A stretch of DNA of 64,000 nt from assembly GCA_964106915.2 (NCBI GenBank), contig OZ066915.1, one strand, 5' to 3'. Below, piece by piece: positions 1 through 64,000 of this stretch; within the stretch, counting starts at the first letter, position 1; the number at the start of each line of letters is the position of its first letter. The translations under genes were made by a program, and so were the position numbers. The notes beneath the pieces were generated by a model that was not told the DNA's origin, ran no database searches, and worked only from the letters and a program-made list of their open reading frames with translations. The DNA is from Podarcis gaigeae (lineage: Eukaryota).

Positions 1-1726
1 GACCTGCTTTGAAGTACAGGCATCATACAGGTATGTTTGTCAGTGGGCCAAGATTGACTGCAGCCCCACAAATTGTATGTTTGTTGGCAAACCTGGGTTA
101 ATGTGGGAAATGGCTCTCAATGAGCAGTACAGTACTGAACATAACCAATCAATTACTAAATAGGCTTGGTTGAAAATGAATGTTTAGACTCCAGGCTATC
201 TTATGCTAGGTGTGCTTTCACCCATCTTGACAAATCTTTAGAAGATGTTGAGTTCCAGGCTGTGGTAACCAGGAACGCAGAGTCAGATTTCATAACACCA
301 CCATCTCTTTCTGCAGAAAAATGACATAGAACACGCATGATTGTTATGTCTTGTCCATTTCAACAGTTGTCCTGTGTGCCTTTGATATTTGCTTTCCCAT
401 GTCTGAGGTTTATTGTGGAGCAGCTGCATGTTTCTCTGGCATTTTTGCAAGTTCCATACCTGCAGAGTAGCATTCTCCAATGTGGGGTCAGACAGTCTAT
501 GGAAGAATTAGGAAAAACTGAGGGACATTCTGGTGGTTTCATCCTGTTTGAAACCTGGGCAAGGTAAAGGCAGCACAAACTTAGTTTAAAAGGGTGGCTA
601 GAACAAAACATCAGGATTCCATATCTCAAAGTACCAGAGTGGATCTTGGGAAGATGGCTGTTAGAATGTGTGGGGAATTTATTCACATTAATTTCAGAAA
701 CTCTTTGGGTTACCTCCTGAAACATATAGGCAGCAGATTAGACAAATGAAAAACCTGCTTCACACACACAAAAATCCCTACACTATTATATTATAGATTG
801 CTTTCTAAAGGAAATAAACAAATGATAAATACACTGAGGAACTTCCATATTTAAGAAGAGTGTACCACAGATGATTGTTTACTAACAACACAGAATGGAT
901 GTTCTGCTTCTGAACTTTTTTAGCTTTTGACTGGCCACTTTTAGACAAAATGCTGAATTAGGTAGACTATTGATTTCAGCCAGCACTGCAATTCTTGTGT
1001 CCCAAATCTTGATTGGGGCAGTGTTCCTAACAATTATCATCTGCTTTAGAGACCAATAATTTAATGCATCTCTATGGGGGCAACTTGCGATTTGCTAAAA
1101 TGTCTTCATTTTAAACACAGTGGCTTGGGAGCAAGGGCATTCTGCTGCATGAAAGCAATTGGGGGCATGGGAATTCCAAGCTAACAGTATATTATTGGAC
1201 CACTGTCTCGCAATAAATGTTTGTCTAGATACATCCCAAAATAGAGGAGCAAGAGATGGATCTGATTGTTTCATGGTGAGTTAATTAGTTCTGCAAGGAT
1301 CCCAACACCAGAGTCCAGAACAGACAGAAGGGCTTCTTCTGCATCTGCAAATGATGCACTTGCTGTTTAAGTTAGCAATTGCTGGCTCACTCCCCTGTAA
1401 AAACTTAAAATGCCAATCAGAAACATGACAGCACCATGATTTAGCCCATCTGGTGTACTACAGAGTAGATATTATCTGACAGTTTCAGCTTGCATATGCC
1501 GAAAAGTTAAGTATGTAAATGTAGGAGCCTGCAGGGTTATTTACTTTTGCCACATTTGTGGAAATATGTTGAATAACTAGCTCTACTGGAGTAATATAGG
1601 GGTCTGTGAAGAAAGAATAGTTGACGGCTGAATTGCCTTATGTTGAATGTGGGTTTATCTCCATTTGATTACTGGCTGGTTACAAGGGTAGCAATCACTC
1701 AGCCACTCTGTCTTCTGAATTTCTAG

Positions 1727-3581
1727 GAACATGCACCAATTCCAGTATATCACCCAACGCCCAGCCAGGCACGTCTTGCCACACAACTAACAGAAGAGGA
1801 GCAGATCCGTATAGCTCAGAGGATTGGGCTGATTCAACATCTTCCCAAAGGAATATTTGATCCAGGCACAGAGCCATCGGAAAAGAAAATCAAAGAGTAT
1901 GTTTTCCATGTGCAATGCTTTGTGTTTATCCAGTTCACTGAGACTATTTGCTAGTAGATGCATATATAGCCTTTATATCCCACTGACAGTGTGTAGCAAT
2001 TCCCTTTCCAAAATGGAATATGGGTATATTGTACTGTCCAATTCTTGGTTTTAAAAAATGATGACATTCTTGGTTTTAAAAAATGATGACATAAAAAGAT
2101 TGACTATCCCTGGTCTGATTCCTGGTCAATCACTACCTGTTCAGACCGCATTACGTTACATTTATTTGCTCGTTCTCTCGATTTGGAGAAGTTCTTATAG
2201 AGCTTTTCACAATCCCTTTATGATTTAATCACCCTGAACAACTTAGTGTCATGAGCAAACTTGGCCACCTAACTGGTCTAGCTTGTTTTTTTTTAATAGA
2301 AAAAAAGTACAGGTCCCAATACTAATTCTTGTGGGACTCCACTTTCTGTCTGCTTTAGTAAGGTTTGTTCTTCTATATGCTTGGTCATTTTATCCTTAAC
2401 AATACTTTCTACCAGTTTTTTCAGGACAGGTGTTAAGCTAACCAGCCTGTAATTTCTAGGATTCCCCCTGGATCCCATTTTAAAAATTAGTGTCACATTG
2501 GCTACTTTCACCTTCAGGTGTGGAGGTTGATCTTTGGGACAATATACAGTGGTACCTCAGGTTACAGACACTTCAGGTTACAGATGCTTCAGGTTACAGA
2601 CTCCGCTAACCCAGAAATAATACCTTGGGTTAAGAACTTTGCTTCAAGATGAGAAGAGAAATTGCATGGTGGCGGGAGGCCCAATTAGCTAAAGTGGTAC
2701 CTCAGGTTAAGAACAGTTTCAGGTTAAGAATGGACCTCTGGAACGAATTAAGTTCTTAACCCGAGGTACCACTGTACATATTTTTATTAAGTCAGAAACT
2801 TCATATTTGAGTTGAGATCTCTTAAGTAGATTCAGACCCCAATTTGCCTCAATTCCTCAGACTTCATACAAAAGTTAATTTAGGCAAAAGTTAGTTCCCC
2901 ACCATCATTTTTCCAACAGAGCAATATTTTCCCCAACTATATAACACAAGGTGAAATTAACATGCATCATATTTAAAATGAAATATTGTTCTCTTCAGCC
3001 TCTGCATCCATCTAACCTTAAAGAGTTCTTTGTTATGACGACAGTGTGTATTTAAAAACATCCAATAAAATATGAATATACAACACCAACCTTCAGCTGG
3101 GGTAATGTCCATGTTTTGGAATAGATGTAGGTGGAGGGTCATCCTTGAGCCTTGGAAGTCAGAAGCAAACTATTAAAGATAGAGCGCTCTGTGTGTAACA
3201 GGCTTGCATGCTTTCCAGCACCACAACCAGTATTGGACACTGTTAAGAATGGAATAGTGAGACTAAATGACTTGCCAGCAAGTAGTTCTTTACTGGGATA
3301 CCTAAACTTACCATGTGGTGACAAATTGGGCAGGGAATGCGAAAGAGAAGTATTAGAAGACATTTTAGTGTCTTTAATAACATTTCCTTTTCTCTCTGCC
3401 CGATTTCAGGTGTGTGATCTGCATGCTGGATTTTGTATACGGAGATCCTATCCGGTTCTTGCCCTGCCTGCACATCTACCACGTTCACTGCATTGACGAC
3501 TGGCTGATGCGATCATTCACCTGCCCTTCTTGCATGGAGCCAGTTGACGCTGCTCTTCTGTCCTCCTACGAGACTAACTGA
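1727..3581 (+). CDS. RNF11: RING finger protein 11-like (RING-H2 E3 ligase), last two coding exons; exon 1 not found, presumably upstream of the window
   Basis: Exon 1727-1896 (ttctag|GAA...AAAGA|gtatgt, 170 nt) encodes EHAPIPVYHPTPSQARLATQLTEEEQIRIAQRIGLIQHLPKGIFDPGTEPSEKKIKE. Exon 3410-3581 (ttcag|G, 172 nt, TGA 3579-3581) encodes CVICMLDFVYGDPIRFLPCLHIYHVHCIDDWLMRSFTCPSCMEPVDAALLSSYETN*. RING-H2 pattern and the RNF11-type C-terminus are present and phases are compatible. Probably a paralogue rather than the orthologue (see findings). Confidence 0.92.
2200..2830 (-). mobile_element. CR1 LINE ORF2 (RT) fragment, interrupted by a MITE
   Basis: Minus-strand translation ANVTLIFKMGSRGNPRNYRLVSLT...KLVESIVKD and GVPQELVLGPVLF are degenerate CR1 RT motifs. 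Boundaries approximate. Confidence 0.8.
2547..2774. mobile_element. Non-autonomous Tc1/mariner (Tigger-like) MITE
   Basis: TIRs CAGTGGTACCTC...GAGGTACCACTG flanked by TA on both sides; related copies at 31622, 40756 and 53389. Confidence 0.88.
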
Positions 3582-4824
3582 GGTGGCTCGGTGCCCTGCT
3601 CTTGTTAATGCTTCCAGGCTCTGGCTGTGTGGGGGGCTGGGATGTGGCACACTCTTTTATTTGCACACTTCTGGGATACACCAAAGATCCTATGGCAGAG
3701 AATCTGATCCCAGGCCTTGATGACAACACAGAACCATTCTAGCTTGGCTGGCTGTGCTAAAGGCTGACTTGTGCCATATTTGAGAATTGTAACCAGAGTA
3801 GGTGGAGACTGGGGGCAAAATGGCAAAGCAAGAATTGTCCTTTCACTCCACCCACAAATGCTGTTTTTTTCTTTTCTTTTTAAGAAGATCAAGATTGTTC
3901 CTTAGGACTATTCTTACCCACATACCTGTTTAAATCCCCACTGAGTTATCAAGTACAGGTCTGGGGTGTTACATGGGAGGGGACTGCAACTCTTTGACCG
4001 AAAAGAGAGAGTTGTTTAAAGCTGGCACTGGTTGCAAAGATCTTGTAATTTCAAATCCAGAAAAGGAGTTTTAGCATTGTCACATCAACTCTGGTTGGTT
4101 TGTGGCAGAATCTGGAGTTTTGAGAAGTGTTTTTTTTTTTTTTAAAGCATTTCTCCGTTACCCCACAAATGCTTCTTTTAACCAGGTGGGAAACAAGCGT
4201 CTTTAAAAGCTTGGCCACTATTGAAATCTTACCCAGTAGCACTTGTGCTACAATGCACAAAACAAGTCTAAGGGGTTTGTCTCAGTTCTTTGTGGGGGCA
4301 ATTTGGAGCAGTGACCTTGGCGGGGACTTGAGCTTGATTTCTGTAGTTGGAGTCGGGGTGCTTCTGTTTAAAAGGTTCATGTTTCAACTAAGAATGAACG
4401 ATACATACTTTTCACTTCCTCTCTTCTGCCTGTAAAGATTTCAAGATGCTTTTAAGGTGAAGGAGACAGAAGAGTTATTTGTTAAATAACAGCTTTTTAG
4501 TAAGTTAGTGATGAAGTACAAAAGCCTCCTCTACAGATGGTGGGTTAAGGCATTCAAGTGCACTATTGTAAAGGGTAAAGAAACTGTTTGTTTGCCCAAT
4601 GTTTACTCTGTTTGCCTTACACAAAATGAAGACTCTTGTCCCATAAGAAACTGCTAGCGATTAATGCCATGCAGCAAGCCCACTGTTTGGAAAGGCTTCC
4701 CTTAGTCATGCTGTTTATTGCCTTGCAAGTGGAGAGGCGTGAAAGTGCTTTTCTGATTATGCATTGTCCTTAACAAGGATCTAGCACTTGAAAGTAAAAC
4801 TGATGTGTGTTGCATTCAAATGGA

Positions 4825-4830
4825 AATAAA
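4825..4830 (+). promoter_or_regulatory. Candidate poly(A) signal of the RNF11-like gene
   Basis: AATAAA about 1.25 kb after the stop codon; use not demonstrated. Confidence 0.5.
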
Positions 4831-12600: not shown

Positions 12601-13449
12601 CAACATTTATTGGGGACAGCACTTACAGAAGTATTCCAGAACTGCCTACTTTCAAGTCCACAATCAATATGAACAAACCCAGTAAAACATTAACTTGCAC
12701 AGCAATGACAGATGTCGACTATAGTATGCAACCACTGTCAACAGACGTTTTAAAAAATTGCTTGCTGCATACACCTATGCTATATATTACCGGGGCGAGG
12801 GATATCAGCACTAAATATTCATGCCCATCGGACTTAAATTCATAACGTGAATTAAAGTGAGCTTTGAAAATCTTTGTCGAGAGCTCGGAGGAAGAAGAGA
12901 ATTTAACAGTGCTCCTGGTAACATTATTCCGCTACCGTAACAGAAATACTGGGGGGAGGGGAAGAGAGAACATTTTACAGGGGTGAGGAAGTGCTTCACC
13001 CGTTGAACTTCTGCCTGCCAAGCACCTATTAAGGGCACACGCGACCATGTCAGGAAAGGAGATGAAAACGGGCAGGCAGAAGGCGGCAGCCAGCGCCTCG
13101 GTCCTTTGGGGTCTGGGGAGGGCGGAGGCAGAAAGCGAAGTGGAGTAAGCCAAGGGAAAGGGGAGGAGGGGGTGTCAGGGCCCGGATCCCTTACGAAGCT
13201 GAGGGCGCTCCCGCTCCGCTTCTTTTCCGGCGGCTCCTGTTCCCCGGGCGGCTCCGGCCGAGACTCGGTCTCTCTCTGCTTTTCGGCCCCCGCTTTCCCC
13301 GCTCCCGGTCCGCTCCTCCCTCCCGCGGCGGCGGCCTCTTCCATGCGCCGCTTGAAGAGCTCTAGGAAGGAGCCGTCGTTGGCGAACACGTTCACTCCGC
13401 CCGGCCCGGCCGCCTCGGAGCCTGGGCCCCTGCCTTGCGCCGCCGCCAT
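9700..13449 (-). CDS. TRIR: Telomerase RNA component interacting RNase (C19orf43), 3 coding exons, 146 aa
   Basis: Exon 13449-13195: MAAAQGRG...VNVFANDGSFLELFKRRMEE...GSALSF|gtaag. Exon 10863-10786: cag|VGKRRGGSKLALKTGVVAKKQKTEDE|gtaag. Exon 9807-9700: tag|VLTSKGDAWAKYMAEVKKYKAHQCSDDDKTRPLVK*. All introns are phase 0 GT-AG; the FANDGSFLE motif and C-terminus match TRIR. Confidence 0.96.
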
Positions 13450-14290: not shown

Positions 14291-17200
14291 TCCTTGGCAG
14301 CTGCTGCTGTGCCTTTTTAGGAGCTGTGTGACAGGCAGAAACCCAGCAAACGCAGCTTTCATATCGCTGAACCTTTGCTGGCAAAAGCTCTACCTGTTGA
14401 ACGTCCGCATCTCATTAAGCTATGGAGAATAGTGTCTTATTAGGCAAGCGAATTGTATGCAACTTCATGCCACTGTACGTAAATATCATGGGATTTGGGG
14501 CACCCTGCTTCAGATGCGAGACTGGATGAAACTAAGTAGAAGCATAGGGGTTGGGTGCCTTCCTTTTTCAGATTCATATTTTGACAGTCATTTATGCCTT
14601 CTTAATCTCAAGGCTAAGTATTTGAAGCTGCTTTTATGTGTGGTTGTCCTTGATGACTGAAAGCTTCATTTAGAGCAGAATGCACTTTCAGACAAATTCT
14701 GAAGAATGTAATTGTTCTGGTACTTGGACTGAGAACACTCATTGCCTTCCAGGTATAGCTTTATCTTGTAAACCCCCAAATGGCTTGGATTAACTTAATT
14801 TGTAGCTTGCCTACTTCCTTGTGCAACTCTGCCAACAATACCTTCTTGATTATATTAGCCTTGCTGTTGTGGAATAACCTTGCAGTGGTAGGTTTCCCAT
14901 TGTGCAATGCCTTTTCTTCATAAAGATTTTTAAAATTGTAGATCAGAACTTAGAACACAAGTATTAGAGGCTATTAAATTTTGGCTGGTGTGTGTTGGAT
15001 TTTGATGTCTAGGGTTAAACCTTTTAACGTGTGGGCTTTCAATATATTCTAGATTTACTTTGTGGTGACTCATAAGAAACTCATTAATATATTATTTGGC
15101 CTGGTTTTTTTGCGGGGTGGGGGGGTGGAGGTAACCTGTCTTGAAAGAGAGGGGTATCACAAGTTAAATAGCTGAAGCTGTCATTTACTCAGGAGTGAGC
15201 TGTTTTGCTAAGCTAATGTGCATATGATTTGGCTGCTTCTGAGTAGCTGCTTGTCTGTGACAAGTAAGCACCTCCATAGAGGAGCAAAGTTGGAAGTCTT
15301 TGGATCATAATCTCTTAAGGTAGACAAATCCGAACAGACCTATTAAGAGTGTGATAGCTGAAGAGCTTATGTTCTATGTTTGTATGTATTTCCTTTTGTG
15401 ATGTTAATAACTGCACATTGCTTTACTTCCTGAATCTAGCTGCAGCCTGGCTGTGCAGCTGTCCAAAGTGCGGGAGAGTGTCCTCATCATCTCCACCGAT
15501 CCTGCTCATAACATATCAGATGCTTTCGACCAGAAATTTTCAAAAGTCCCCACCAAAGTAAAGGGCTATGATAACCTTTTTGCCATGGTGAGTGTTCCTC
15601 TGAAGGGACTGGGTAGTATTGAGCAAAAAAATATGGTTCTTATTACATATAGGAAAAGATCAGGCAGGGGTGAAAACATTCTTTTTTCTGACCTTGCTCT
15701 TTCACACTGAATAGATTATGATATGTAGCAATAAGGCAAGTAAACCAACTGAATTTTTCCTCCAAAATTTCTGTGTCCTGGACTGTGAGGAGATGATGGT
15801 ATATTTTGTTTAACTGGTTTCTCTTCACTGTATTTTAAGAGATGTGACTAATGTAGTGGTTTGTAACCTCGAGAATTTATCTGTAACTGTTTAAAGCAGT
15901 TTTTTAGAATGGCTGAATGACTTTGTTTTTGCTTTATGAAAAGTGGTGCTGATCCTTCTATTTATTTCACAGGAGATTGATCCCAGCCTAGGTGTGGCTG
16001 AACTTCCAGATGAGTTCTTTGAGGAGGATAACATGCTGAGTATGGGCAAGAAGATGATGCAAGAGGCTATGAGTGCCTTTCCTGGCATTGATGAGGCCAT
16101 GAGCTATGCAGAAGTTATGCGGTAAGAACTGTGGCCTGGATCATCAAGCCTTCTAACCTTTTCTAGCCTGTGGGAGGCTTATTTATTTATTATTTCATAA
16201 AATTTATACACTGCTTGACTGTGGGTTAAAAAACAAACAAACCTTAAAGCGGTTTTTGGGTTAAGAAGCAGAAGGACCAGACTTCAAAGGTATTTTACTG
16301 GGTTCACCATTATGAAGTTTGGGTTAGCCAGAGGTATCCCAATCCGAATGGTTTAGCCATTAGGATAGTCCAGCATAGTAACTGAGTATGTTTTGCACAA
16401 GGTTATTGTATTATTTGTGGTTTGTATCCAATTAAGTAGGCTCCCTGTAGTAGTAGTAATAATAATAATAATAATTAATAATAATAATTTTATTTATTTA
16501 TTTATATGCTGTCCATCTGACTTGGGTTACCCCAGCCACTCTGGGTGGCTTCCAACAAATAGAAAAGCGCAATAAAACATTAAATACTTTACTATACAGG
16601 GTCAGTGTTAGAAACAGAGATATGAAAGCTAGGAGCTAAATGGCACCTTAAACCTAGGTTATGGGCGCAAAAACAGAATGTGTGATACCTTCAGGTACAG
16701 GGCGGTATAGAAAATAAATAATAATAATACTACACTTTTTAAATAACAGAAATACAAATCTGAAAATGAATGAACTGCAGCTGAAGTATTATGTTCATTT
16801 TTCACATGATCTAGTCCTTCCCCTGCCCATCCCTCTAATATTCTTAAGAGGGTCTCTTCTCAAGTCTTCAAAGAGTAGCTGGAAGTGGGGAGGCAGAAAA
16901 AGGTCCTCCTTTCCTTCTACTCTGTAGTTTTAATCTGAAATCTTAGGCACAGTATTGTGCCCAGATCTCAGAAACTGCTCACCCTAATGAAATTCCCTGT
17001 CGCAAAATGTGCCTAGAACAATGGGAGTTCTGAACACTGTACGGGGCTGACTTCAGTTGTTGTTTAAATAAGTAGGCTCACCTAAGCTAGCCATGACCAT
17101 TAATTTCAATGACTCTAATCTGAGTATGGCTAATATTGGATTCAACCTTTTGTGATTTATGCATCATTTATTGCACTGGACAAATTTGTGCACCAAAGTA

Positions 17201-20200
17201 CCATAACATCTGTTGTTGCACGACATGGATTCCACATACAAAGTTTTCTTTCACAGAGCAAAGAAAGCACTAGCATTAAGTGAACCTTAAAGTGTATATG
17301 TATACTGGGGAAGGTCAGTATAAAGAAAGAGGTGACTATTTATAACTGCTCCAGCTGATGGTTCTTTCTCTGGCCTGCACAGGTTGGTGAAAGGGATGAA
17401 TTTCTCCGTGGTAGTGTTTGACACAGCACCCACTGGGCACACACTACGGTTGCTCAATTTCCCCACCATCGTGGAGCGGGGGCTAGGCCGCTTGATGCAG
17501 ATAAAGAACCAGATCAGTCCCTTCATATCGCAGGTAAAATGGGAGAGGAGCCAGAAAAATGAGGCGTTCCTGGAAAGAAGACCATGCCAGACATCTTTTT
17601 TAAAAAAATTCCACCGTGTGGCATTTTGCAAGCTTTTGCATGGACCCTACTATTATTCTTGCAACACTCGGAAGCAACATGAAATAATCGATTTGATTTG
17701 TTGGGTTGCTTGCAGGACACAGTAGCACATATTGCCCTTGGAGTATTGGCTTTGTCACTCTGAGTTGAGCTGATAAGCAAGTTTTGCTTATTCCCTCCTC
17801 TGTTGCATGCAGGACATGTAGGGGTGACTTGTTGTCTGTTAATAGAAATCTCTCATTGCAACTCCCTCTCTGTTGTTCACTAGATGTGCAACATGCTTGG
17901 CCTGGGAGACATGAATGCTGACCAGCTGGCCTCCAAGCTGGAGGAGACCCTTCCTGTCATCCGCTCAGTCAGTGAGCAGTTCAAGGATCCGGCAAGTATT
18001 CTGCAAAGATGAGGGGTTTGGGGGGGTGATACTTCACTCTTGGCAAAGGTGAATTTGGAATGTATAGTAAGATGAAACATGCTTACATTTGTGACCGCTT
18101 CACTAGATTTAACATTAATTCAGTTAGCTATATTTATATACTTGTTTTTTATAATTTTGCAAAACTTTTAAAATTGTCTTCTCAAATGTAATATTCATTT
18201 TCAGTCCATTCAATAGTTGCAGTCTTCCAGATGATATTAGTTCATTAGAATGATCAGGCTAAAGATGACTTCTCTCATAGCATAATATTCTATCAAGTAA
18301 TGAAAAAGAACACTGAAATGTAACTCATTAATGTTTGGAAGTAGCTAGAGATCAATTTCTGCTTAGTTTATTCCATGAAACAGCAACAAGGTCAGGTCAG
18401 GTCAAAATGAATGCTATTTAAATCTAGACAGGGGCCATGTTTGCATGTAATGATAAGCCAGACTTTCTTCCATTCTGTGCGCACGATAATCAGATTGAAT
18501 ACTTGGCTTCTTTCCTACATCTGAACCAGGAATCATGGTTTGTTGCTCTCTAATAAGCCATGAGTCATGGTTTGTTGCTCTCTAATATGCCATGATCAGC
18601 AAGTCAACAACAAACTATGTTCCATGATAGGGTGACTTCAGTTTCTCTCACACAGGCTGGGCATATTTGTGTTCCAGTCATGACAAGAAGGAAACAAACA
18701 AACAGAGTTCACCCATTACTACAGAATCTCATCCTTTGTATTTATAGAATCATATAATTGTAGAGCTGGAAGGGATCCTGAGTCATCCAGTCCAACGTCC
18801 TGCAATGCAGGAATTTCTTCTAAAGCATCCATGACAGATGACTGTCCAACCTCTGTTTTAAAACCTCCAGTGAAGGAGAGTCCACCACCTTCCAGTGGAA
18901 AGTTCTTCCTGATGTTTAGTCGGAATCTCCTTTCTTGTAACTTGAATTCATTGCTCCATCTTCCATGTGACAGCCCTTTACATATTTGAAGATATAAATG
19001 ATATTATGATATATGGTAGTATGTCTCCGGTGCTAAATTTATCTAGAGGCCTCTGTGTTGCCACCCACAACTATTCTGTGGGAGAGTTTGCTCATTTGGC
19101 GATTTCTGGCTTTTTGGACTCTATGCCCTCTTTAAATGTGCAGAGCATGACCACTTCCAGTATACCCTTTCCTGTCCTCCTTATAGAATTTGAATTCTAA
19201 GATAACCACATCTCACTGGTTATCTCCATTCAACCAGGTTTCCATTATTCCAACAGCACATATGCTCTCTCTTTAAGATCGAGCACTCAAGCTCACAAAT
19301 CTTGGCTCTTCCTGCAAGGAGCTTGTAATACAATTTTGACAGTAGGGGGAGTCCGTGGATGACTGCAAGCACATGTAGTAAACTTAAGTTTTATTTGTAG
19401 AGCAGGGTTATCGCTTGGTAATCCTTATTTACTGTCATTGTCCATTTGGCGTGTAGTTTGCTTGCCTCCAAAGTTCAGATGTCACAATAACCTAGGTTCT
19501 GGCTTATTTTGCAGCAGGAGCAGGGAAGGTGTGGAGCAATAAATATGCATGCTGCATATTTTAATTAAACCATAGTTTGTTCTAATATAATGTTCAAACC
19601 AGGCCAGGGCATCCAGATACTTTTCCTGATCTTTCCAACTGTAGCAGCGATCAGTTTGAAAATAGAATCTTCCAGTTATAGTGAAGTTGCTACGTGCCGA
19701 AAAGAATGAGACCTCAAGTGGGGATTTTCTGACCCAACTTGGATTGGGGCTGGATCAGGAAGACCTTGGGGGGGGGGGCAAGCATGTCACATACACAAGT
19801 CTCCATAGCACTGACAAGTCTACATTTTGCAAGTGTTTTCCATTCATGGCAGCTACTCTGCTAATGTACATTTACACTGACAGGAAACAGCTGGTACTGG
19901 CTGGAGTGATTTTTGGAATTGGTGGGGTGAGGAGTTCAACTCTGGTACAGTTGTACCTCAGAGGTCGAACGCCTTGCGAGATGAACATTTTGGCTCCCGA
20001 ACTCTGCAAACCCAGAAATGATTGTTCCAGTTTGCGAATGTTCTTTGGAACCCAAACGTCCGGCACGGCTTCTGATTGGCTGCCGGAGCTTCCTGCAGCC
20101 AATCGGACGGAAGCCATACCTTGATTCCAGTACATTTTGAAAGTCAAACGGACTTCCAGAACGGATTTCGTTCGACTTCCAAGGTACGACTGTATTAGCA

Positions 20201-23200
20201 TATTAGTTTATTCTTTATTAAGCCCACAGTGTGCTTCATTCAGATCCTGGGAGACCAACTAATATGTCTAAGCCAGTCAGTCACCCTGGTGGTATTTCTT
20301 TTTTTGCAGGGTTTGTGCTTTGTTTTCCTGAGTATTGGCTGTAGTTTCAGCGGGAAACCTAAAGAGATAGAAACATAAATCTTAAACAGTTGTTCAACTT
20401 GTGAATCTCAGCTAGTGGAAGCTATTGCATACTATTACTACACTGGTTCTTGTGCATTCTTATGTGACCAATGTGCTCCACGGCTGCTATAACAGCTGAT
20501 ATGGTAAAGGAGCAGGAATGAAGGGATTGCATGCCTCCTGGCTCTCTTTTTGCCCCAAAGGCATAGAAGAACATTGTGTTTCTCTTGCAAAATGTTGCAA
20601 ATCTCATTGTGTTGTAAACTGCTCTAGTTATACCCCTGTGAACGTTACACTTTCTTACTAGACTCTTGCTCAGAGTAATTTATTTTTTTAAATTAAACTT
20701 TATAACATTTAATAAAGGAAGTGAAGTAAAAAATCGTGACAAAATGAGAAGCGGTGGGTAGCGGGGTCCCACCAGCTCACATTTTTTCTAGCTTAGAGGA
20801 ATAATAATAATAAAGCTTTGTCTCCCAGCTGTTAGCTGAACAAACTTTCACCATTGGCCATATGGGCAGGTAGGGAGTTGTCGACAACAGATGAGTTATT
20901 TGATGCAGGAATGCTGCATTGGATCTTCATGTTTTGACTGAAGGATAGAATAGGCCAGCAGGCATCTCTAGTAATAGAAGCATTCCTTAACTTTTGAAAA
21001 CATTATTTGCAAATCCAGGTGTGGCTATAATTGTCAGGACTTTTGCCTGCTACCCACCCTGTTTCTAATTGCTTGGAATGTATCTTGTAAAGATGGGCAA
21101 GGGTTTTGAAGGTAACAGGATGGGACATGACTTTAGGGAGCTATTTGTAGGGCACTGAGGTGGGCATGTCAGCCTTGTCCTTTGTATTGTTTGCATGTTA
21201 GAGTAGTTAAAGGCTGGGTTTCTGCATTTAATTGTCCATTTTGCTATGAATTATGCAAGTGTGGGTGTTCCTTAGGCAAAGTAAGTCTAGCAACAATCGG
21301 GCAGAGACAAAGAATTTAACCGTGCATCTAGCCACTTCGCTGGTCACCTCAAGTGAGCGATTGCCTTAAATGGCCAGGTGAATTTCCAGTCTTCTACTGG
21401 AGACTGGGGGCAGGATTCAGCTAATAAGTCCCACAAGTGGAAGCCCTAACAAATATTTGCCCTAATTCAACAGGGCTCCCCCCCCCTTGCAGCCCCAGAA
21501 TTGCACATGGGGTGGAGAGAGGGGATTGTTCTGTCTGGCAGGCTGAAATGCTTGAGCTGGCAAAACATTTGCCATAGAGCTGCGTCGAATTCCTCCCTGT
21601 GTGCTATGGGTTGCTCCTGCCTTTAAGCTAAAACTCTTAAGGCTGGAAGAAGAGGCAGCCTCATAAACATATTCTAGTCACTCTTCGTTCCTTTCTGTCC
21701 TTCTAGTATGACGGAGTCCTGCCGTCATTAGATGGTGCTTAGCATAGAAAAAAGACACAATGAGGCAGCGAGTATTTTCATGAATGGTAAGAGCAGCTCC
21801 TTTCTCTGCCCTCTCCCGATTTATTCTCCTTTGTTCTCCCAGCCGCATGGCCGTTTGCCAATGTCTCACGTTACCTCATCCAGTCAAGGCTTTTATTACA
21901 CCCATCACCATATAGGGAAACACTGCCCAGAGGAAACACAACTCCATTTAGGGTCAATACATCCTAATACATTGTAAGGCACAGAGTGCTGGTCAGCCGA
22001 GGTCAGGGGGCACCCTGCGGTATTTACAAGCCTCTGCCTTGGCTTTATGACTCCCACACTAGTAGGTGGAGGAACTGAAAGAATATGGGGGCTAGCAGCC
22101 TCTTTGGGTGCTTTCCCCCTTTGTCTGGTTCCTGGTGGAGCTACACTGGCTCCCAGTGGAGTACAGGATCAGGTTTAAGGTGCTGTTTTTAACCCTTAAA
22201 TCCCTATACGGCCTAGGACCCTTGTACCTACGGGACCATCTCTCCTGGTATGTCCCACAGAGGACCTTACGGTCTGTAAATAACAACACCCTGAAGATTC
22301 TGGGCCCCAGGGAAATTAGACTGGCCTCGACCAGAGCCAGGGCCTTTTGGCCTGTGGCCTCGGCCTAGTGGGACGCTCTCACAAGAGACCAGGGCCCTGC
22401 AAGATTTGACATCCTTCCGCAGGGCCTGCAAGATGGAGCTGTTCCACCAGGCCTTTGGTCAGGGTTCAGTCTGACTCATTTTCTCTTTGTATAAGAACAA
22501 GCATGAAGGAGGTTTCCCAGCCCGCTCACAGGTCCTTATAATATCAGTAGAAACAGTTGGTCCTGGCGAGTATTAACCGCTTTCAGTTTTAACCTGAGGA
22601 TTGTCATTTGTCCAGTTTTAATTTTAATTTATTTGAATTAATTTTGGGATGCATTTTAATCAATTGATTGCTTGTTTTTATGCATATTGTATTATTTATA
22701 TGATGTTAGCTGCTCTGAGCCCGGCTCTAGCCGGGGAGGGCGGGGTACAAATAAAAAGTTGTTATTATTGTTGTTATCTGAGCTAAGAAACAAGGCAGGG
22801 TGCATAAGTGCTGTGTTTCCTTTTTCTGTGCCTATCCTAGATAAGCAAGGAAGTTACCAGCTGCCCAAGTGCCCTACACTAAACACTGCAGCCATTCTTC
22901 TCGACCATGCTGGTGAAAGGATAGTTCCAGATTCTGTAGACGTGATCTGTGTGCCTTCTGAACTTAACTGGAAAAGATGGGATTGCAATGGCTGATCCCC
23001 TGTACCCAGAGATAGACGTGACACATGGTGTGGACTATGTGAACAGGTGTTCAGGTGGCAGATAACCTGAGGACAAGTGGCCATATTGCTTCCTGAGGGG
23101 CAACAGCTTTTGTTGCTTTGCCCTCTGGCCTTATTCCTCTAAAAAAACCATGGTGGTGGAAGGAATGTAGAAGCTGAGAATTTAAGGTGGAAACAGGGAC

Positions 23201-24837
23201 TGTGGGGGAGACAGCAGCACACAGGTGACTCCCAGGGATGGGAGACCAGCTCCTACAATTTTATTTGCATTTGTGAACTAATGGCACTTTATCCCCTCCC
23301 CAGGAACAAACAACATTCATCTGTGTTTGTATTGCTGAGTTCCTGTCCCTGTATGAAACAGAGCGGCTCATCCAGGAGTTGGCCAAGTGCAAGATCGACA
23401 CGCACAATATCATAGTCAATCAGTTGGTCTTCCCTGACCCAGAGAAGCCCTGCAAGATGTGTGAGGCCCGGCACAAAATCCAGTCCAAATACCTTGACCA
23501 GGTATGGCTAGAGACTGTTCAGATTTTTCAGTGTCCATTTTGGGGAAGTGGCAGCAGTCAGGCACCAATCTAAGCCTGGGGATCTGCTTTACATTGATTT
23601 AGCCCACTGGTCCATCTTGTCTGGTCCTAATATTGTCTACTTGGACTGTTAAGGTCTCTGAGTTGCATACCTAACTTTATAACTCCCAGCCCTTTTGGTC
23701 AATATTACTTTAAACTTCTGAATGGTTGAAGTTTGCTATTCTACTTTTACCTTCAGCTTCAGAATTCCTGTCTCCCAGCATTCCCCTTTCCATTGCCACG
23801 GCAAGTGTTTAGCTTTTCTAGAGGGGTGCAAATATCCAGGTGAACAGTAGCCACTGGCAGTTTAAGAAATGGGTCCTGCAACTGTCTTGCTGTAGAAGGC
23901 AGGAAGCGGGTCTCCTCCATATGTGCTGCTCTTTGTGGAATCTGGCCTTCAGGTGGAAATGTGGAATTTTCCTCTTCTATAACTTTTATCTCTGTTCAGT
24001 CCAACCTCACTATTATTATTCTTTGAAAATGAAAGGGAATGTTTACTAGTAAACTGAGTAGTTTTTGTCCAGGGAAAATATGCAGACCTTCCCCAATGCC
24101 TCCACAGACAGGCTTCACTTTTCTCTGCCATTTTGTTGCTTCTGCTTCTTCTGTATTCCATTTTGCTTTTTCTACACTCTCCTCTTCTTTCCCTTTGAAT
24201 GATTTTTGCAGCCTTTGTATCCATCCACCTCTTTCTAATCATGGTATCCTTTTTCTGTGACTTCCACCCTTGCCATCTCTTCATTCATTACTCAGCCTGA
24301 AAAGTTGTGGGGAAGTTTTACACATTTTTCTTGGGCCAAAACCTCCATCTCCCACTCCAGTTGTCCTATCGCCTCTTCAGTACTATGTACTCTGTTTTTC
24401 TTTCTGCCACTTGTGCCTTTTCCATGTGTCCTTCCTTCACTCAGTAAACCAAGGGATGGTTAATCTGTACCAGGTCTTCCAAGGGCCCAGCTGTAAAGCT
24501 GTTCAAAATTAGTTTAAGATTGCCATTAGACAGCAAGAGGATTACTTTTCTTAGTGCTGTTGCAAAGAGGGTCTTCCAAAGTCAACAGAGCACACTTTCC
24601 AACCAAGCAGGGAACTGCTGCTGAGATTCTTCCATCTTGATTCCCAAGAAGAAGTTTGTAATAGTCAGATGCTCCTTTTGATTTGTCTTTCTTTTCCTCC
24701 TCCAGATGGAAGACCTCTATGAAGACTTTCACATTGTAAAGCTGCCACTCTTGCCCCATGAAGTGCGAGGGGCTGATAAAGTCAACACCTTTTCAAGTCT
24801 GCTACTGGAGCCCTACAAGCCACCCAGTGCAAAATGA
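14063..24837 (+). CDS. GET3: ATPase GET3/ASNA1 (TRC40), tail-anchored protein targeting factor, 7 coding exons, 349 aa
   Basis: Exons 14063-14226, 15440-15587, 15973-16121, 17383-17533, 17884-17991 (GC donor), 23304-23501 and 24706-24837 (TGA) sum to 1050 nt in frame. Deviant Walker [11 protein letters not shown], switch I STDPAH, switch II DTAPTGH, CKMC zinc motif; ends [11 protein letters not shown]. Confidence 0.98.
16603..17039. mobile_element. Non-autonomous hAT-like DNA transposon in GET3 intron 3
   Basis: Imperfect TIRs CAGTGTTAGAAAC / GTTCTGAACACTG; degenerate 8-bp TSD tacagggt / tacggggc. Confidence 0.6.
18743..18990 (-). mobile_element. CR1 LINE 3' end fragment
   Basis: atagaatcatataattgtagagctggaaggg...tccaacctctg...gagagtccaccacct is the reverse complement of a CR1 3' terminus. 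Confidence 0.7.
19948..20192. mobile_element. Tc1/mariner-type MITE (CAGTYGTACC subfamily)
   Basis: TA|CAGTTGTACC...GGTACGACTG|TA with a central palindrome; inverted relative to the copy at 25844-26084. Confidence 0.8.
22135..22777 (+). mobile_element. L2-clade LINE 3' fragment
   Basis: Encodes [16 protein letters not shown]...[11 protein letters not shown]...RARAF (L2 ORF2 C-terminus), then a 3' UTR ending gggcggggtacaaataaaaag and a (TTA/TTG)n tail. Confidence 0.82.
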
Positions 24838-43201: not shown

Positions 43202-46200
43202 ATGACTGTCACATACACAGCCCGCGTGGCCAACGCTCGCTTCGGTGGCTTCTACAAACTACTGACCCTCTGGCGTGGAAGCATCTACAAGCTGCTCTAC
43301 AAGGAGTTCTTGGTCTTCTCTCTTTCGTACCTGGGACTTAGTGTTACATATCGGTAAGTGGGAACGTGGAAGAACAGTCTCATATCTACCCTAAATGACC
43401 TTTGGTGTGTCAAGCACGCGCCACCAAAATTCAGGGCTCTTCAAATAGTTACCACTTGGATCCACTCTCTAGAAATTCACTAATTTTCTAAGACAAGGCA
43501 TTGTTTTCCCTTAGCGGTGTCTTTAAATTAGAAACCTCATAGAATAATTGTTTGTTCAGGAGCATGCCTTTATTTGGCGGGATGGAGGACAGTGTTTGGC
43601 ATTTTGATTGGCAACCTGTTTTGGGGGTTTTTTAAATTTTGCACAGCCCTTGTAACAAACTTGGTCTAACCAGCCAAAGTTGAAACTTAACACACTGGAG
43701 TGGGATGGGCAGGATATATATAAATATGGCATTGCCCAGCCTCACCCCCTTTCACAACTGTAATTATGCTGTAGAACCCACTCTTTCTGGGTTCTGCTGG
43801 CTGCACACTTCCTCCTCTCCAAGTTCAAATTGCACTTCTCCACTTCTCAACCCCAGATCAGGGTGACTGATTTGCTACTTTTGAAACCCTTGCTTTGTTT
43901 TGGGCACTTTGCTATCCTGCTGACGACTAGAGAGGACCTCCTGTGAGCAGCAAATCTGGAGTGGCATCAATTCAGCTCGCAGTTTGGGCAGTCACCTTAT
44001 CACACACACCACTCACTTATAGCAGAAGTGTGTGTGTGTGTGTGTGTGTGTGTGATATACAACCACCCCTTTATGTGAGTCAGCCTAGCTCGTTGCATAT
44101 ATTATGTATGATACAGAAGTCCTCAGCTCCCAGCAGTTGTGTGATTCTAGCACTCTGGTGCAGTCTTTGCCAACTCGGTTGTCCCCCATATGTCTGAGAC
44201 CAGCTGGAGCTGATGGAAGTTGCAGACTCCAAATGTTTTGGAGACAACCAGGTTGGCGAAGGCTGGTCTGATGTATAAAGTTGCCCCAGGATTTACTGTA
44301 TGTCCTGTCCAATCATAACATTTTAAAAACAGCCCTCACTTGCCCTTCAGAATGCATTTAGATTGTCCCCTTACAAGAGTGCAAGCAGGTGGCTCTCAGC
44401 AAATGTGTTGCCAACCCCCTTGGGAAATATGCATCCTTCTTAATCCTTCTCTCATTCTTATTCCCACCTCTAGCTTCGTCTTAAGTGAGACTCAGAAAAG
44501 GGACTTCGAAAAGGTGGTGATTTACTGTGACAACTATGCCAATCTCATCCCTGTCTCCTTTGTCCTGGGTGAGATGCTTGAACGCCAGCTCCTTTCCTAA
44601 AGGAGCAATGCTCTTTCCTTATCCATGTGCCCATCCCAACCTTGGCTTCCAGGGCACAACCTTCATCCATGCCTAGTCCAATTTACTGCTTGCCCTTTGC
44701 GTACTGCAAGGGTGTCAGACTATAATACAGGCTCAGCAATAGATATGCTTCTGGTTTAGACTTGGGTGTGACTCCCCCTCCCCCCCAGTCTATCAAAGTA
44801 AGAGTATGGTGATAATAGGGTATTATGGGCTTTAATTACTTCATCTGGAAACTGGGTAGAGTATGGGTGACTTGTGCATGTTATACTCGGCAGCTAACTT
44901 CCACAATTAGGTCTGGTGGAGCTCAGAGCTCTCTGAAAGCCAGGAAGAGCAGCCCGGAACACTCCATGCCCTTGATCCTGAACATATTGGCAATGAGAGA
45001 AAGGAACTCTGCACATGCTCAGGGTAATGTCATGTGTACTGGCAGCAAGCAAACTCCCTTCTCGGAGCAATAGTCCTTATATGTAGCCAAAATGGCACCA
45101 CCCATACACAGAATAGGGGAGGTATCAAGCAGGCATGCTGAAGTACAGAATGGAAACCTTGGAGGAGGGGACATCCTAAAATGGCCCAGTGAAGACTGAG
45201 CATGCCCAGTGGGTATTGAATGCTGAGGGGGATTCAAAAAACGACACAGTGGGCATGGAATGCTGTCTGCCTGTTGTGGGGTATTTGTTTGGGTGGGGAT
45301 ATACGAAAATCAGTGGGGAGAATAGAATGGAGGGACTGGAAAGCTGAACAGAGGTATTCCATGCTGCAATGTTTTGTGGCCAGTTTCTCTTGCACTTACT
45401 GTCTAATGTTGCCAGAACCGAGCTCTGTCTTTCATAATTTGTGTTCTCAGTCCTGGTTCAAGTGAAGCATTCCTGTTTTATCTCAGAGTGAGGCTGCCTG
45501 ACTTAGCAACATGCCATGGGACAGAATTCTAATGCAACCCCTCCCCATCTCCTGGGTTCATTTAGGGTTCTATGTGACATTGGTGGTGAACCGCTGGTGG
45601 AGTCAGTACACCTGCATGCCTATGCCAGACCGCCTGATGTGTGCCATCTCTGGGAATGTGCACGGCACTGACGAGAAGGGGCGCCTTTACCGGCGAACTC
45701 TCATGCGGTACTGCAGCCTTTCTGCTGTCTTGATTCTTCGCTCAGTCAGCATCGCTGTGTTCAAGCGTTTCCCCACTATAGACCATGTGGTGGAGGCAGG
45801 TGAGTGCAGAAGGGAGACCATATTTCCCACTAAGCCAGTGGTTTTCAACCAGTGTGCCGTGGCACCCTGGGGTGCCTTGAATGATGGTTGGGGTGCCATG
45901 GGCAACACTGGCCTCCCTCCTTCTTTCCTTCCCTCCCTCTTCTGGTGCCCTATTGCGTTTCTGCCTCTCAAAGGTTTGCACAGCTGTTTATTGCAGAAGC
46001 CCTGGCTACAAGCTCCTCAGATGAATGATGCCTCTGGGGCTGGCCAGGGGGTGCTCTCCAGGACCCTGTGGGGCAGTGGGAGGAGGCACCTCTCTTTGGG
46101 GCAGAGGGGGCAGCTCAGAGACCAGGGACGGCAGCAGCAGCTGCCCAGAGGACTCCCAAGGAGAGAGGGGAGAGGAGGCTGAGGGAACATTCCACATGGG

Positions 46201-49200
46201 AAGGTGTTTGAAAAAGGATGAGAGACTGCCAGCTCTCAAGCAAGGGCAAGGTGACATAACTAGGCTCCTGAGCCCCACAGAATGAATGTTGTTGGTCAAG
46301 GGACTCATGGACTCAAAAGGTTGAAAGCCTCTGCACTAAGCTTATAAAGCTTATAAGGATGAGAGGACTGTGGGAAAGCCTGCAAGAGGTAGGTGTCCCC
46401 CTGCCCTTGCCCATTTGTTAGAATGAAATTAGGAAATTTTAAAGTTTTTTTTTAAAAGCAATGATAGGCATAACTTTTAATCTAGAATATGTTATTTCGG
46501 AATGCCACAATTATGCAGCTTATAAAGTGGACCGCCTGTAAGCAGAGCATATTGCATTTAGTGTGAGTTTTACTACATATCTTGTGTCCTTCTTCAAGGC
46601 TTCTTCAAAAGCCTATAGCCTTTCAGAGTGCAGTTCTTCAGTGTAAGATTGCACTCTGGACCTTCTAAATAGAGTACTATTGGCTGCATAACCTCTGTTG
46701 CATCTAACAGGGTTCATGACTCGTGAGGAGCGCAAGAAATACGAGAACCTGAACACTTCCTACAACAGATACTGGGTCCCCTGTGTCTGGTTTACCAACT
46801 TAGCTGCACAGGCACGCAAAGAAGGCCGCATACGTGATAACTGTGCTCTCAAGTTACTCATGGAGGTGAGGTGGTAAATCCTTGTCCCCCAGACTATAGA
46901 TATAATAGTTATTCTTTGACACCTGAGACGTGTGTTTTCAGGGCCCACCCTATTCCTGCGATCATAATATGATTTAACTGTTTTTAATTTTAAGCTGTTC
47001 ACCTGCGAGTCAAGGGTGGGTTATAAATTTGATGATGATAGGCGTACCTCCAGAACAAGATCCTTTAGTGCAAGGTTTCTTTTGTGACCCATGCTCCCTG
47101 TTAGCTTACATAAAAATCTAACCCCTTCCTGTAAAGCCTGGCTCCTCTAATTGTTTTATTAAAATTTACAAATGGATTTCTATACTGGTGAGCTCAGTCA
47201 CCTAAAAAAGAAAAAAAATCCCAGAAGTGTTCAAGAGCAAACATTACCAGTTTTAGCTCTCATGTTTTGCAACAGGCAAAATGGAGGCTTGTATTGTGTA
47301 TGTGGCAATATTGAATCATTTTGTTCTAATGTTTAATACTAGGCTATTGTGCAAGAGTAATATTTACTTTAATTTATAAAACTTACGCAAGATATAGCAG
47401 GTGTTGCATATGTGTGTTTATATATTTAAAAGAAGCTTGGTACGTGTACTGTGATTAGTTTCCAAGGTAATCCCTCATATGTACTGGGTGGAGATCTTGA
47501 GAACAGCTACCGTTGCTGAATTTGGAATATGCCTTCATCATGTGGCAACTGGAAATAAGCACACACATGTCATTTCTGCTGCCAGGAAAAAACTCATGTG
47601 ACAAACTATGCCACACCCCACCCCAAAAATTAATGAGTTTTCTCACCAGGGGTGATTGTGGATATATAATTGGTTATTATAGTCTGAAGAGAAAATCCAG
47701 ATTAAATAATAATAAAAAAAGGATGGGCTTGCATTTTGATAATAGTGGACATCTTGTGGACCCAGTGAAAAACATATGTGCATGAGCAGTACCAATTGCA
47801 TAATAAACTCTCTTGTGACTGCAGCCTAAATTTCAGTTTATTGGCCTTCACTCAGCCCATTACCAATTCAAGACACCAGTTCAGCACTTTCACTGCTTCA
47901 TGTGACTCAGGTGAAAATTAGACTAGAGTTGGGTGTCATCTGCATATTGATGACACCCCACCCATAATCTTCATATGACCTCTCCCAATAGATACAGATG
48001 GTGAAATGCATGGTATACAAGGTGGAATTCTTGGGGACCTTACAACATAAATGCCATGGGGTCTCCCAGGATCACCTTCTGGAAGTGACCTTCCAAGTAG
48101 GAATGGAACCACTGGGACATCATACTTCCAGTCCCCAACCCTGATAACCTATTCAGAAGGATACCACCATAGTCAATGGTATAAAAGGTCCAGGAGAAAT
48201 TAGCAGGGTCGTATTCCTTCTGTGCTTCTCCCAGCATAGATCATCCATCAGGACAACCAAAGCTGTTTCTGAGCTGAAACCAGGTCTGAAGATGGACTGA
48301 AAAGTTCTAGTTAGGCAGAAGTTTCAGTGCTTAGCCCTTAGAGATGGCTGTTTTCTTCTTTCAGGAACTGAACCTTTTCCGCGGAAACTGCAGCATGCTC
48401 TACCACTATGACTGGATCAGTGTACCACTAGTCTACACTCAGGTGAGTTAAGGACCCAAAGCAGTCAGAAAGCCCAACTACATCCATTTGGGCTCATATG
48501 ATGAACCACCCGCTTCCAAACGTTGATAGTTATTTCACCCAAAGGCATGCATAGAGTCAAAAGCACTGAAGCCACTGAACAAGCACATCATATACTGTAT
48601 CAGGGAATTTTCATCCCAGCTAAGTTTAACACAGCCCAACATGGCATGTCTAGCCCAGCAGTTAGCCCAGCCCCACCCCAGAAACTTCATCACACCATGG
48701 AACAAGCCTTATATGTAGAGCAGCAATGCACAGATCCTAATGTTATATGAGAACAGCTGAGGTTTACCTATTCTAAAGCACATTTTGAGGATCTCATGCT
48801 AGATTCATCCAGAGCAGCCTCTAGTTGTGTGCCTACAATCACTATTTCAAGGAATGTACTCAGGATCATTAAAACAAAAACAAAAACCCAGTTATCTGGC
48901 TTTGGCACACACTAAATGCCTTTCTATAGTCACATTTAGGATGATTAAAGAGGAATAACATGTTTCTTCTCCTTCAGTATGTTTATATGGGAAGTAGTGG
49001 TACTAATTCACACTAGTAAACTGAGTATTGTGTGAAGGATCTTAACTCATTCCTATCTATTCAAGAATGAAAAGCTGCTGAAAATTAGAAACTCTACCCT
49101 ATTTAATACAAACATACATTAGGACAAGGTTGAACCTCTTATATTACTGCTGCTTAGCATCTCTGATTCCATGTACAGAGGATAAATTATTAGGGATTAA

Positions 49201-63823: not shown

Positions 63824-64000
63824 CTGCAGAACAGAAGGATATAGATATAAGTATAGGTATCTTTTGCAACTTTTAATGTCAGGTAACTCTGACTTTATTC
63901 GATAAAAAGTGGAGGGACAGAAAGTAACTCTACTAGCTATAGAAAACTACTGTGTAAACAGGAATTGCTGCAGCAAGGTCAAAGGGTGCCAAAAACTGAA

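What the first reader, a model, noticed from the sequence alone, without database searches (positions are those of the whole stretch)
1727..3581. RNF11 paralogue next to TRIR: a possible 2R ohnologue missing from the mammalian locus
Seen: two intact exons (170 and 172 nt) with canonical splice sites, an intact RING-H2 and the terminal SSYETN*, so this is not a processed pseudogene. Established: human RNF11 lies at 1p32, while TRIR-GET3-BEST2-HOOK2 lies at 19p13 with TNPO2 beside TRIR; these regions are paralogous (HOOK1/HOOK2, BEST4/BEST2, JUN/JUNB, PRDX1/PRDX2). The peptide differs from the strongly conserved RNF11 as I recall it (GIFDPGTEPSEKKIKE vs GVYDPGRDGSEKKIRE; CLHIYHVHC vs CMHIYHLDC). 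Inference: a whole-genome-duplication sister of RNF11, kept in squamates and lost in mammals, i.e. a second and little-studied RNF11-type ubiquitin adaptor.
Basis: partly seen in the sequence, partly recalled or inferred. Interest (0 to 1): 0.7.

Follow-up and report, generated by a model that had tools for sequence, protein, structure and literature searches.

The report
Ancient RNF11 twin missing from placentals
This lizard gene is an intact, spliced second copy of the ubiquitin regulator RNF11, the counterpart of zebrafish rnf11a; it likely arose in the second vertebrate genome duplication, is kept from sharks to marsupials, and was likely lost only in placental mammals, an ordinary kind of gene loss.

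Summary
The exons are 170 and 172 nt with AG/GT sites and an intact RING-H2. Exon 1 lies about 0.9 kb upstream of the window, and RNA reads splice both introns. The 157-aa protein keeps Gly2, Cys4, both dileucine signals and PPPY. The genome holds a second, canonical RNF11 on C15 beside TTC39, with JUN, HOOK and BEST paralogues on the same contig. The window gene lies between a transportin gene and TRIR in the GET3-BEST2-HOOK2-JUNB block, which Lamb 2021 gives as the 2R sister of the C15-type block. Trees place it with shark and teleost rnf11a and Xenopus rnf11.2, and reject grouping it with RNF11 (p 1.5e-5). No named placental, monotreme or neognath copy appeared among the listed hits, but their genomes could not be searched. 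Databases already name it rnf11a or 'RNF11-like', and ten literature searches found no paper on its origin. Differential ohnologue loss is common. One unexpected point: PPxY is missing in 7 of 9 marsupial and 14 of 15 shark or ray copies. Interest 0.3.

The parts
1..1726 (+). 3' part of intron 1 (2516 nt in all, GT..AG, phase 0). Coding exon 1 lies outside the window, about 790-920 nt before its first base (G000:C2:45507079-45507210 = L011:9079-9210): 132 nt, 44 codons, with Gly2, Cys4, Ser6, D11-D12-x-x-L15-L16 and PPPY 40-43, donor GTAGCG, in a CpG island.
   Evidence: splice reads
1727..1896 (+). Coding exon 2, 170 nt, residues 45-101 (linker with the putative UIM and the paralogue-specific GIFDPGTEPSEKKIKE segment)
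1897..3409 (+). Intron 2, 1513 nt, GT..AG, phase 2. It holds a high-copy short repeat at about 2545-2776 and a retroelement-like fragment at about 2296-2556 (repeat classes recalled, not tested).
3410..3581 (+). Coding exon 3, 172 nt with the stop: RING-H2, T138 (equivalent of human T135), DAALL 147-151, SSYETN*
3582..4830 (+). 3' UTR. Reads cover it to at least 3900. The first AATAAA is at 4825; two transcript contigs are long enough to end near 4840-4890 (inferred from their lengths).
13192..13449 (-). Neighbour: first exon of TRIR (name from a weak Atlas lead, score 0.84, plus recall; no Pfam hit)
15411..23570 (+). Neighbour: GET3/ASNA1 exons (ArsA_ATPase hits at 15411-15707 and 17336-17722)
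43202..51540 (+). Neighbour: bestrophin gene (BEST2 by position); a paralogue lies on C15 at 51.93 Mb
56588..63894 (-). Neighbour: HOOK gene exons (HOOK2 by position); paralogues on C15 at 59.58 Mb and C30 at 11.19 Mb

Best explanation
This is an intact, spliced lizard orthologue of zebrafish rnf11a and Xenopus rnf11.2, a sister gene of RNF11 that likely arose in the second (jawed-vertebrate) genome duplication and was likely lost in placental mammals, and whose protein is predicted to work like RNF11 as a membrane-anchored ubiquitin adaptor. Shown: gene structure, splicing, a second RNF11 locus, paralogous neighbourhoods, orthology to rnf11a, and presence in sharks, bony fish, amphibians, squamates, turtles, crocodilians, palaeognath birds and marsupials. 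Inferred from motif conservation against what is known for human RNF11 (PMC7697665): myristoylation at Gly2 and palmitoylation at Cys4 would anchor it to membranes; the acidic dileucine signals would route it through GGA and AP-2 to endosomes; PPPY would bind WW domains of NEDD4-family HECT ligases (ITCH, SMURF, WWP); and the RING-H2 would bind E2~ubiquitin such as UBC13 and damp chain formation. It would thus be partly redundant with RNF11, which is the likely reason it could be lost.
For: Two RNF11-type loci in the genome, with the same 170 and 172 nt exons and the same intron phases. 122 of 154 aligned residues identical; synonymous sites saturated (pS 0.75; 0.83 in exons 2-3) while pN is 0.13 (0.06 in exons 2-3). 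C15 locus: TTC39 about 22 kb downstream, Jun 59.26 Mb, HOOK 59.58 Mb, BEST 51.93 Mb; C2 locus: BEST, HOOK and Jun within about 115 kb. Lamb 2021 lists JUN/HOOK1/NFIA as quad C and JUNB/HOOK2/NFIX as quad D of paralogon 8, with (A,B) split from (C,D) at 1R. Trees: the window gene lies in a starred rnf11a group from sharks to marsupials (98/98; 99/94); window+RNF11 rejected, p 1.5e-5; marsupials+RNF11 rejected, p 3.5e-5; gnathostome rnf11a+RNF11 against cyclostomes 95/88. Spliced, stranded RNA reads; the four coding differences I checked from those reads are all synonymous. All RNF11 sorting and binding motifs are kept.
Against: The gene tree alone does not fix 2R: with ten invertebrate outgroups under the mixture model it was unresolved and the rnf11a group was one side of a branch in only 19% of bootstrap trees. 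The resolved tree came after I dropped the two longest outgroups and used LG+G4, and it does not reject cyclostomes joining either paralogue (p 0.115). Loss in placentals is a negative from protein searches of which only the best 120 of 340, 120 of 1024 and 22 of 22 hits were listed; the N-terminal search missed a known marsupial cluster, so it has limited reach. No placental, monotreme or neognath genome could be searched. No biochemical function was tested. PPxY is absent in most shark and marsupial copies, so the adaptor role is not universal for this paralogue.
Confidence: 0.85

Rival explanations
1. The two genes are ohnologues that split at the first genome duplication (1R), and the single cyclostome gene is the orthologue of one of them.
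For: AU tests do not reject cyclostomes grouping with RNF11 or with rnf11a (both p 0.115). The mixture-model tree with outgroups is unresolved.
Against: The best tree puts cyclostomes outside both paralogues (95/88). The two neighbourhoods are quads C and D, and Lamb 2021 supports the (A,B)|(C,D) split by chromosome fusions, independently of trees. No RNF11-type match was found on the other two Jun-bearing contigs, C30 and C31, beyond unrelated RING domains at 50% identity or less.
Confidence: 0.07
2. The gene survives in placentals (or left a recognisable remnant at human 19p13), so the loss is an annotation gap and not a real loss.
For: Placental genomes were not searched, and only part of each hit list was shown. 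Genes in this paralogon quad sit on avian dot chromosomes and are often hard to find (PMC12954441, passages).
Against: No named placental protein among the listed hits carries the rnf11a signature in a crude classification. The four named placental RNF11 or RNF11-like records put in the tree fall on the RNF11 side. The RNF11 review never uses the word paralog. I recall TNPO2 and TRIR as direct neighbours in human.
Confidence: 0.05
3. A small-scale duplication in the jawed-vertebrate stem put a copy by chance into the TNPO2-TRIR region.
For: The immediate neighbours differ: TTC39 beside RNF11, a transportin gene and TRIR beside the window gene. No third or fourth copy exists to show a 1:4 pattern.
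Against: Three neighbouring families (Jun, HOOK, bestrophin) have members on both contigs. The age matches 2R. Both introns are kept in the same positions.
Confidence: 0.03
4. This is the lizard's only RNF11, moved from its usual place.
For: None found.
Against: A canonical RNF11 (154 aa) lies on C15 beside TTC39. Grouping the window gene with RNF11 is rejected, p 1.5e-5.
Confidence: 0

Closest known systems
Zebrafish rnf11a (NP_957315.1), Xenopus tropicalis rnf11.2 (NP_001006833.1), and NCBI 'rnf11a' of coelacanth and sharks
   Same: Same orthologue group. Bony-vertebrate members share the N-terminal type MGxCLSSQ..DDLSLLN and the DPG[ST]EPS[ED]KK[IV]KE linker type.
   Different: The lizard copy has Gly at position 3 and a longer proline run (157 aa against 146). 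The a/b names suggest a teleost duplication, but the pair is also present in sharks and tetrapods. A 2012 paper on zebrafish 'Rnf11-like' in NF-kB signalling exists (PMID 22609198; title seen in a reference list only; not held); I could not tell which paralogue it studied.
RNF11 (human 1p32; fish and shark rnf11b)
   Same: Three coding exons with the same phases, Gly2/Cys4, D11-D12-x-x-L15-L16, PPPY, RING-H2 with Met after the last Cys, the T135-equivalent and DAALL; 122 of 154 residues identical to the lizard's own RNF11.
   Different: Exon 1 is diverged (pN 0.33), Lys6 is replaced by Ser, the linker before the RING differs, and the gene lies in the JUNB/HOOK2 block. It evolves faster, and PPxY is missing in some lineages, against 29 of 29 hand-picked full-length RNF11 proteins that keep it.
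'Elusive' ohnologues of Hara et al. 2018 (PMC5901865), e.g. FoxG2
   Same: A 2R-type paralogue kept in reptiles, faster evolving than its widely kept sister, in a gene-dense block.
   Different: Elusive genes are defined as absent from the mammal or bird assemblies used; this gene is present in marsupials and palaeognath birds. RNF11 does not occur by name in their Table S10.

Membership tests
RNF11 family | C-terminal RING-H2 (C3H2C3) | tested here: met
   C102, C105, C120, H122, H125, C128, C139, C142; Pfam zf-RING_2 and zf-RING_11 above cut-off
RNF11 family | Gly2 and Cys4 for double acylation | tested here: met
   Exon 1 starts MGGC. The longest 5' transcript contig begins about 77 nt upstream and holds no earlier ATG. 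Acylation itself not tested.
RNF11 family | Acidic dileucine signals (D11/D12..L15-L16 and C-terminal DAALL) | tested here: met
   DDLSLL at 11-16 and DAALL at 147-151; reference positions from PMC7697665
RNF11 family | PPxY motif upstream of the RING | tested here: met
   PPPY at 40-43
RNF11 family | Binds WW domains of NEDD4-family ligases and UBC13; endosomal localisation | not testable with these tools
   Needs bench work; no complex prediction was run
rnf11a orthologue group | Groups with zebrafish rnf11a to the exclusion of RNF11/rnf11b | tested here: met
   Starred groups; window+RNF11 rejected, p 1.5e-5. Unresolved.
rnf11a orthologue group | Same neighbours (TNPO2, TRIR, GET3) in fish, frog and marsupial | not testable with these tools
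   Only the window's own vertebrate genome is searchable
2R ohnologue pair | Both copies present, in blocks that share other paralogous families | tested here: met
   Jun, HOOK and bestrophin members on both C2 and C15
2R ohnologue pair | Duplication older than the shark/bony-fish split | tested here: met
   Shark and ray proteins fall in the rnf11a group; Callorhinchus and Cetorhinus also have an RNF11-type record. Synonymous sites saturated.
2R ohnologue pair | Duplication younger than the cyclostome split (2R, not 1R) | tested here: inconclusive
   Best tree 95/88 but alternatives p 0.115; unresolved. The 2R assignment rests mainly on Lamb 2021's pairing of the blocks.
Processed pseudogene or retrocopy | No introns, or disabling changes | tested here: not met
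   Two introns at the same positions as in RNF11, open 474-nt frame, spliced reads
'Elusive' gene (Hara 2018) | Absent from mammals and birds | tested here: not met
   Nine marsupial and three palaeognath species carry it
Placental-lost gene | No intact copy in placental genomes | tested here: inconclusive
   None among the listed hits; genomes not searchable

The most novel reading that the evidence does not exclude
rnf11a is an unrecognised 2R twin of RNF11 that has repeatedly shed its PPxY motif: in 14 of 15 shark and ray copies, in several marsupial lineages (7 of 9 copies, by different changes) and in medaka and pufferfish. These would be natural PY-less RNF11 proteins that keep membrane anchoring and an intact RING but no longer recruit NEDD4-family ligases, separating RNF11's HECT-adaptor role from its E2-sequestering role. 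The marsupial copies would be a snapshot of the decay that ended in loss in placentals.
Probability: 0.35. Interest if true: 0.5.

Novelty: new member of a known kind. Interest (0 to 1): 0.3.

Why it matters
Modestly. It adds one well-supported case to the many ohnologues kept outside placentals. It shows that zebrafish rnf11a and rnf11b are not co-orthologues of human RNF11 from the teleost duplication: only rnf11b-type genes correspond to the human gene, which matters for reading fish and frog experiments. It also offers natural variants lacking PPxY for dissecting RNF11 function. It does not reveal a new mechanism.

Tried and rejected
Translocated single RNF11 and processed pseudogene: rejected. 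'Squamate-only' and 'lost in all mammals': rejected. Rooting with ten invertebrate sequences under the mixture model gave no resolution; I then dropped the two longest rows (P0342, P0323) and changed the model, so the 95/88 support is model-dependent. dN/dS between the paralogues cannot be computed because dS is saturated; no orthologous DNA set was available for a codon model. No solved structure of RNF11 is among the 41 PDB matches, and no fold or complex was predicted. Four Jun proteins were read but no Jun tree was built. Expression was not compared with canonical RNF11. The run search listed no holder on record as RNA; raw-read runs were laid instead. Literature searches found no paper on the origin or distribution of this paralogue. 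RNF11 was absent from the supplements searched: Hara 2018 (13 of 19 files; six PDFs not searched, one large file unreadable), Lamb 2021 (file cut when stored; pairs are excluded by design), PMC12954441 (one file; the study only covers genes with human orthologues) and PMC13450315 (one short file; the ohnologue database itself could not be seen and may list this pair). Earlier scan findings: none returned.

Full report
1. Observation. The two exons are as described: 1727-1896 (170 nt) and 3410-3581 (172 nt with stop), with AG/GT sites, reading through to SSYETN*. The window is G000:C2:45508001-45572000. A motif scan of 80 kb of upstream DNA found the missing first exon at C2:45507079-45507210, in a CpG island, with a phase-0 GT donor. 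The three exons give a 474-nt frame and 157 aa, identical to a public Podarcis lilfordi protein and contained in a 233-aa Podarcis model, so the organism is likely a wall lizard.

2. It is transcribed. Raw reads of two bulk RNA runs and contigs of two further runs were laid on L037:301-5400. Intron 1 is skipped by 66 and 61 reads and intron 2 by 59 and 71 reads; almost all first mates lie on the minus strand, as expected for a plus-strand RNA in most stranded libraries. The runs differ from the window at several places, so they are of another individual, strain or close species. The four coding differences I checked (three rows of the difference table, which shows only part of its rows, and one at the exon 3 junction) are all synonymous. 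The longest 5' contig starts about 77 nt before the MGGC start and holds no earlier ATG. The 76-residue extension of the 233-aa database model is therefore probably wrong; it would hide Gly2.

3. A second locus exists. Both exons find one close match elsewhere, on C15 (93% and 82% identity); other matches are unrelated RING domains at 50% or less. That gene has the same exon 2 and exon 3 lengths and intron phases and encodes a canonical 154-aa RNF11. The two proteins share 122 of 154 aligned residues. Synonymous sites are saturated (pS 0.75) while pN is 0.13 overall, 0.06 in exons 2-3 and 0.33 in exon 1: an ancient split under strong constraint.

4. The neighbourhoods are paralogous. On C2 the order is a transportin gene (minus; exons match PDB transportin-1, E 4e-19; TNPO2 by position and recall), the gene, TRIR (weak Atlas lead and recall), GET3, a bestrophin, a HOOK gene and a Jun gene at 45.62 Mb. 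On C15, TTC39 lies about 22 kb past RNF11, with a bestrophin at 51.93 Mb, Jun at 59.26 Mb and HOOK at 59.58 Mb. In Lamb 2021 (PMC8040251; passages and supplement rows seen), JUN/HOOK1/NFIA are quad C and JUNB/HOOK2/NFIX quad D of paralogon 8, and (A,B) split from (C,D) at 1R on evidence independent of trees. C and D are thus the 2R pair. Naming the lizard Jun and HOOK copies as JUNB/JUN and HOOK2/HOOK1 rests on position and recall.

5. Distribution. Three protein searches and cluster look-ups show this paralogue in sharks and rays, sturgeon, teleosts (rnf11a), coelacanth (rnf11a), frogs and a newt (Xenopus rnf11.2), squamates, turtles, two alligators, emu, ostrich and kiwi, and nine marsupials (koala, wombat, brushtail possum, sugar glider, tammar, devil, antechinus, Dromiciops, Gracilinanus). 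Teleosts also show a second RNF11-type copy, so their own duplication is separate. No named placental, monotreme or neognath protein of this type was among the listed hits (crude signature; it also mislabels hagfish). Only 120 of 340, 120 of 1024 and 22 of 22 hits were listed, and some cluster members were not shown. Placental loss is therefore likely but untested on genomes; monotremes and neognaths are open. The block lies on chicken chromosome 30, a dot chromosome, where real loss and assembly gaps are both common (PMC12954441, passages).

6. Trees. With 44 vertebrate rows and 154 columns, the window gene sits in a 28-row group of shark to marsupial rnf11a (98/98). Adding ten invertebrates under the mixture model left the tree unresolved. 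After dropping the two longest invertebrates and using LG+G4, rnf11a is one group (99/94) and all jawed-vertebrate copies exclude hagfish and lamprey (95/88). Forcing the window gene or the marsupial copies onto RNF11 is rejected (p 1.5e-5 and 3.5e-5). Forcing cyclostomes onto either paralogue is not rejected (p 0.115). Orthology is firm; the 2R date leans on synteny. The placental RNF11 row is an unnamed record that I labelled by recall, and most invertebrate outgroups are unnamed records.

7. How it most likely works. Human RNF11 is myristoylated at Gly2 and palmitoylated at Cys4, sorted by D11/D12..L15-L16 and DAALL, binds NEDD4-family WW domains through PPPY, and binds UBC13~Ub without building chains (PMC7697665, passages). 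The lizard paralogue keeps every one of these motifs, the N-terminal ones in the same register. I infer a second endosomal adaptor and E2 damper with overlapping function, differing mainly in the disordered N-terminus and the linker before the RING. None of this was tested. Redundancy with RNF11 is the likely reason it could be lost.

8. Unexpected pattern. Among hand-picked listed proteins with an N-terminus, PPxY is present in 22 of 24 squamate, 8 of 9 turtle, 1 of 1 alligator, 3 of 3 palaeognath, 18 of 19 amphibian and 26 of 28 ray-finned fish or coelacanth copies. It is present in only 2 of 9 marsupial and 1 of 15 shark or ray copies; the RING-H2 is intact in all 24 of those. Marsupials differ in how it is lost (PPPC, PPPQ, PPPH, PPPS, or the whole segment missing), only 4 of 9 keep DxxLL, and an insertion moves the signal away from the N-terminus. 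RNF11 itself keeps PPxY in 29 of 29 and cyclostomes in 5 of 5; I left three placental RNF11 or RNF11-like records of likely retrocopy origin (P0263-P0265), which lack it, out of that count. These are gene models, and proline-rich GC-rich exons are error-prone.

9. What is known. NCBI already names the coelacanth and shark genes rnf11a and most tetrapod copies 'RING finger protein 11-like'. Ten literature searches found no paper on the pair's origin or loss. Hara 2018 (abstract, section 9 and supplements searched) reports 469 'elusive' reptile genes, 263 of them with a WGD-age paralogue, and does not list RNF11 by name. Huang 2023 (PMC9974502, passages) and the 2026 ohnologue database paper (PMC13450315, passages and one supplement) gave nothing specific; the database itself could not be seen. 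A 2012 zebrafish 'Rnf11-like' paper was seen only as a title.

10. Verdict. It is a new member of a well-known kind, already implicit in database names. Interest 0.3. The most novel reading, repeated loss of PPxY giving a functionally split or decaying paralogue, has probability about 0.35 and would deserve 0.5.

Noticed in passing
G000:C30:11105241-11108738 (L036) and C30 11.19 Mb: A fourth Jun-family gene lies about 90 kb from a HOOK gene, matching Lamb's quad A ([JUNE], HOOK3). The lizard keeps four Jun-family genes (C15, C2, C31, C30).
   Followed up: partly
L037:502-578 (just upstream of exon 1): Public Podarcis models (233 aa) start 76 codons upstream of the MGGC start, but the longest RNA contig begins only about 77 nt upstream and holds no ATG; the models are probably over-extended.
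   Followed up: partly
window 2545-2776: A short high-copy repeat in intron 2 draws hundreds of reads on both strands in RNA runs (SINE-like by recall).
   Followed up: no
window 2296-2556 (-) and L011:5331-6746 (+): Retroelement-like open frames: a CR1-like fragment in intron 2 and a 472-codon L1-like fragment between the transportin gene and exon 1 (classes recalled; no Pfam hit).
   Followed up: no
L011:1864-2103 to L011:9079: The gene is head-to-head with the transportin gene; their CpG islands are about 4 kb apart.
   Followed up: no
window 1142-1896 (L037:2642-3396): One transcript contig (run X1) begins about 585 nt inside intron 1 and runs into exon 2, suggesting partial intron retention or an alternative start; raw reads of X23 and X24 do not show it.
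   Followed up: no
G000:C16 45.27 Mb and C30 25.3 and 33.2 Mb: Three further TTC39-family loci; the C16 one shows long matches that may reflect fewer introns.
   Followed up: no
protein P0340 (Prolemur simus): A strongly diverged 146-aa RNF11-derived placental protein with an intact-looking RING, probably a retrocopy of RNF11; not placed in a tree.
   Followed up: no
proteins P0224 and P0229: Alligator and emu rnf11a have long branches (0.20 and 0.12) compared with turtles, kiwi and ostrich, hinting at faster evolution in some archosaurs.
   Followed up: partly
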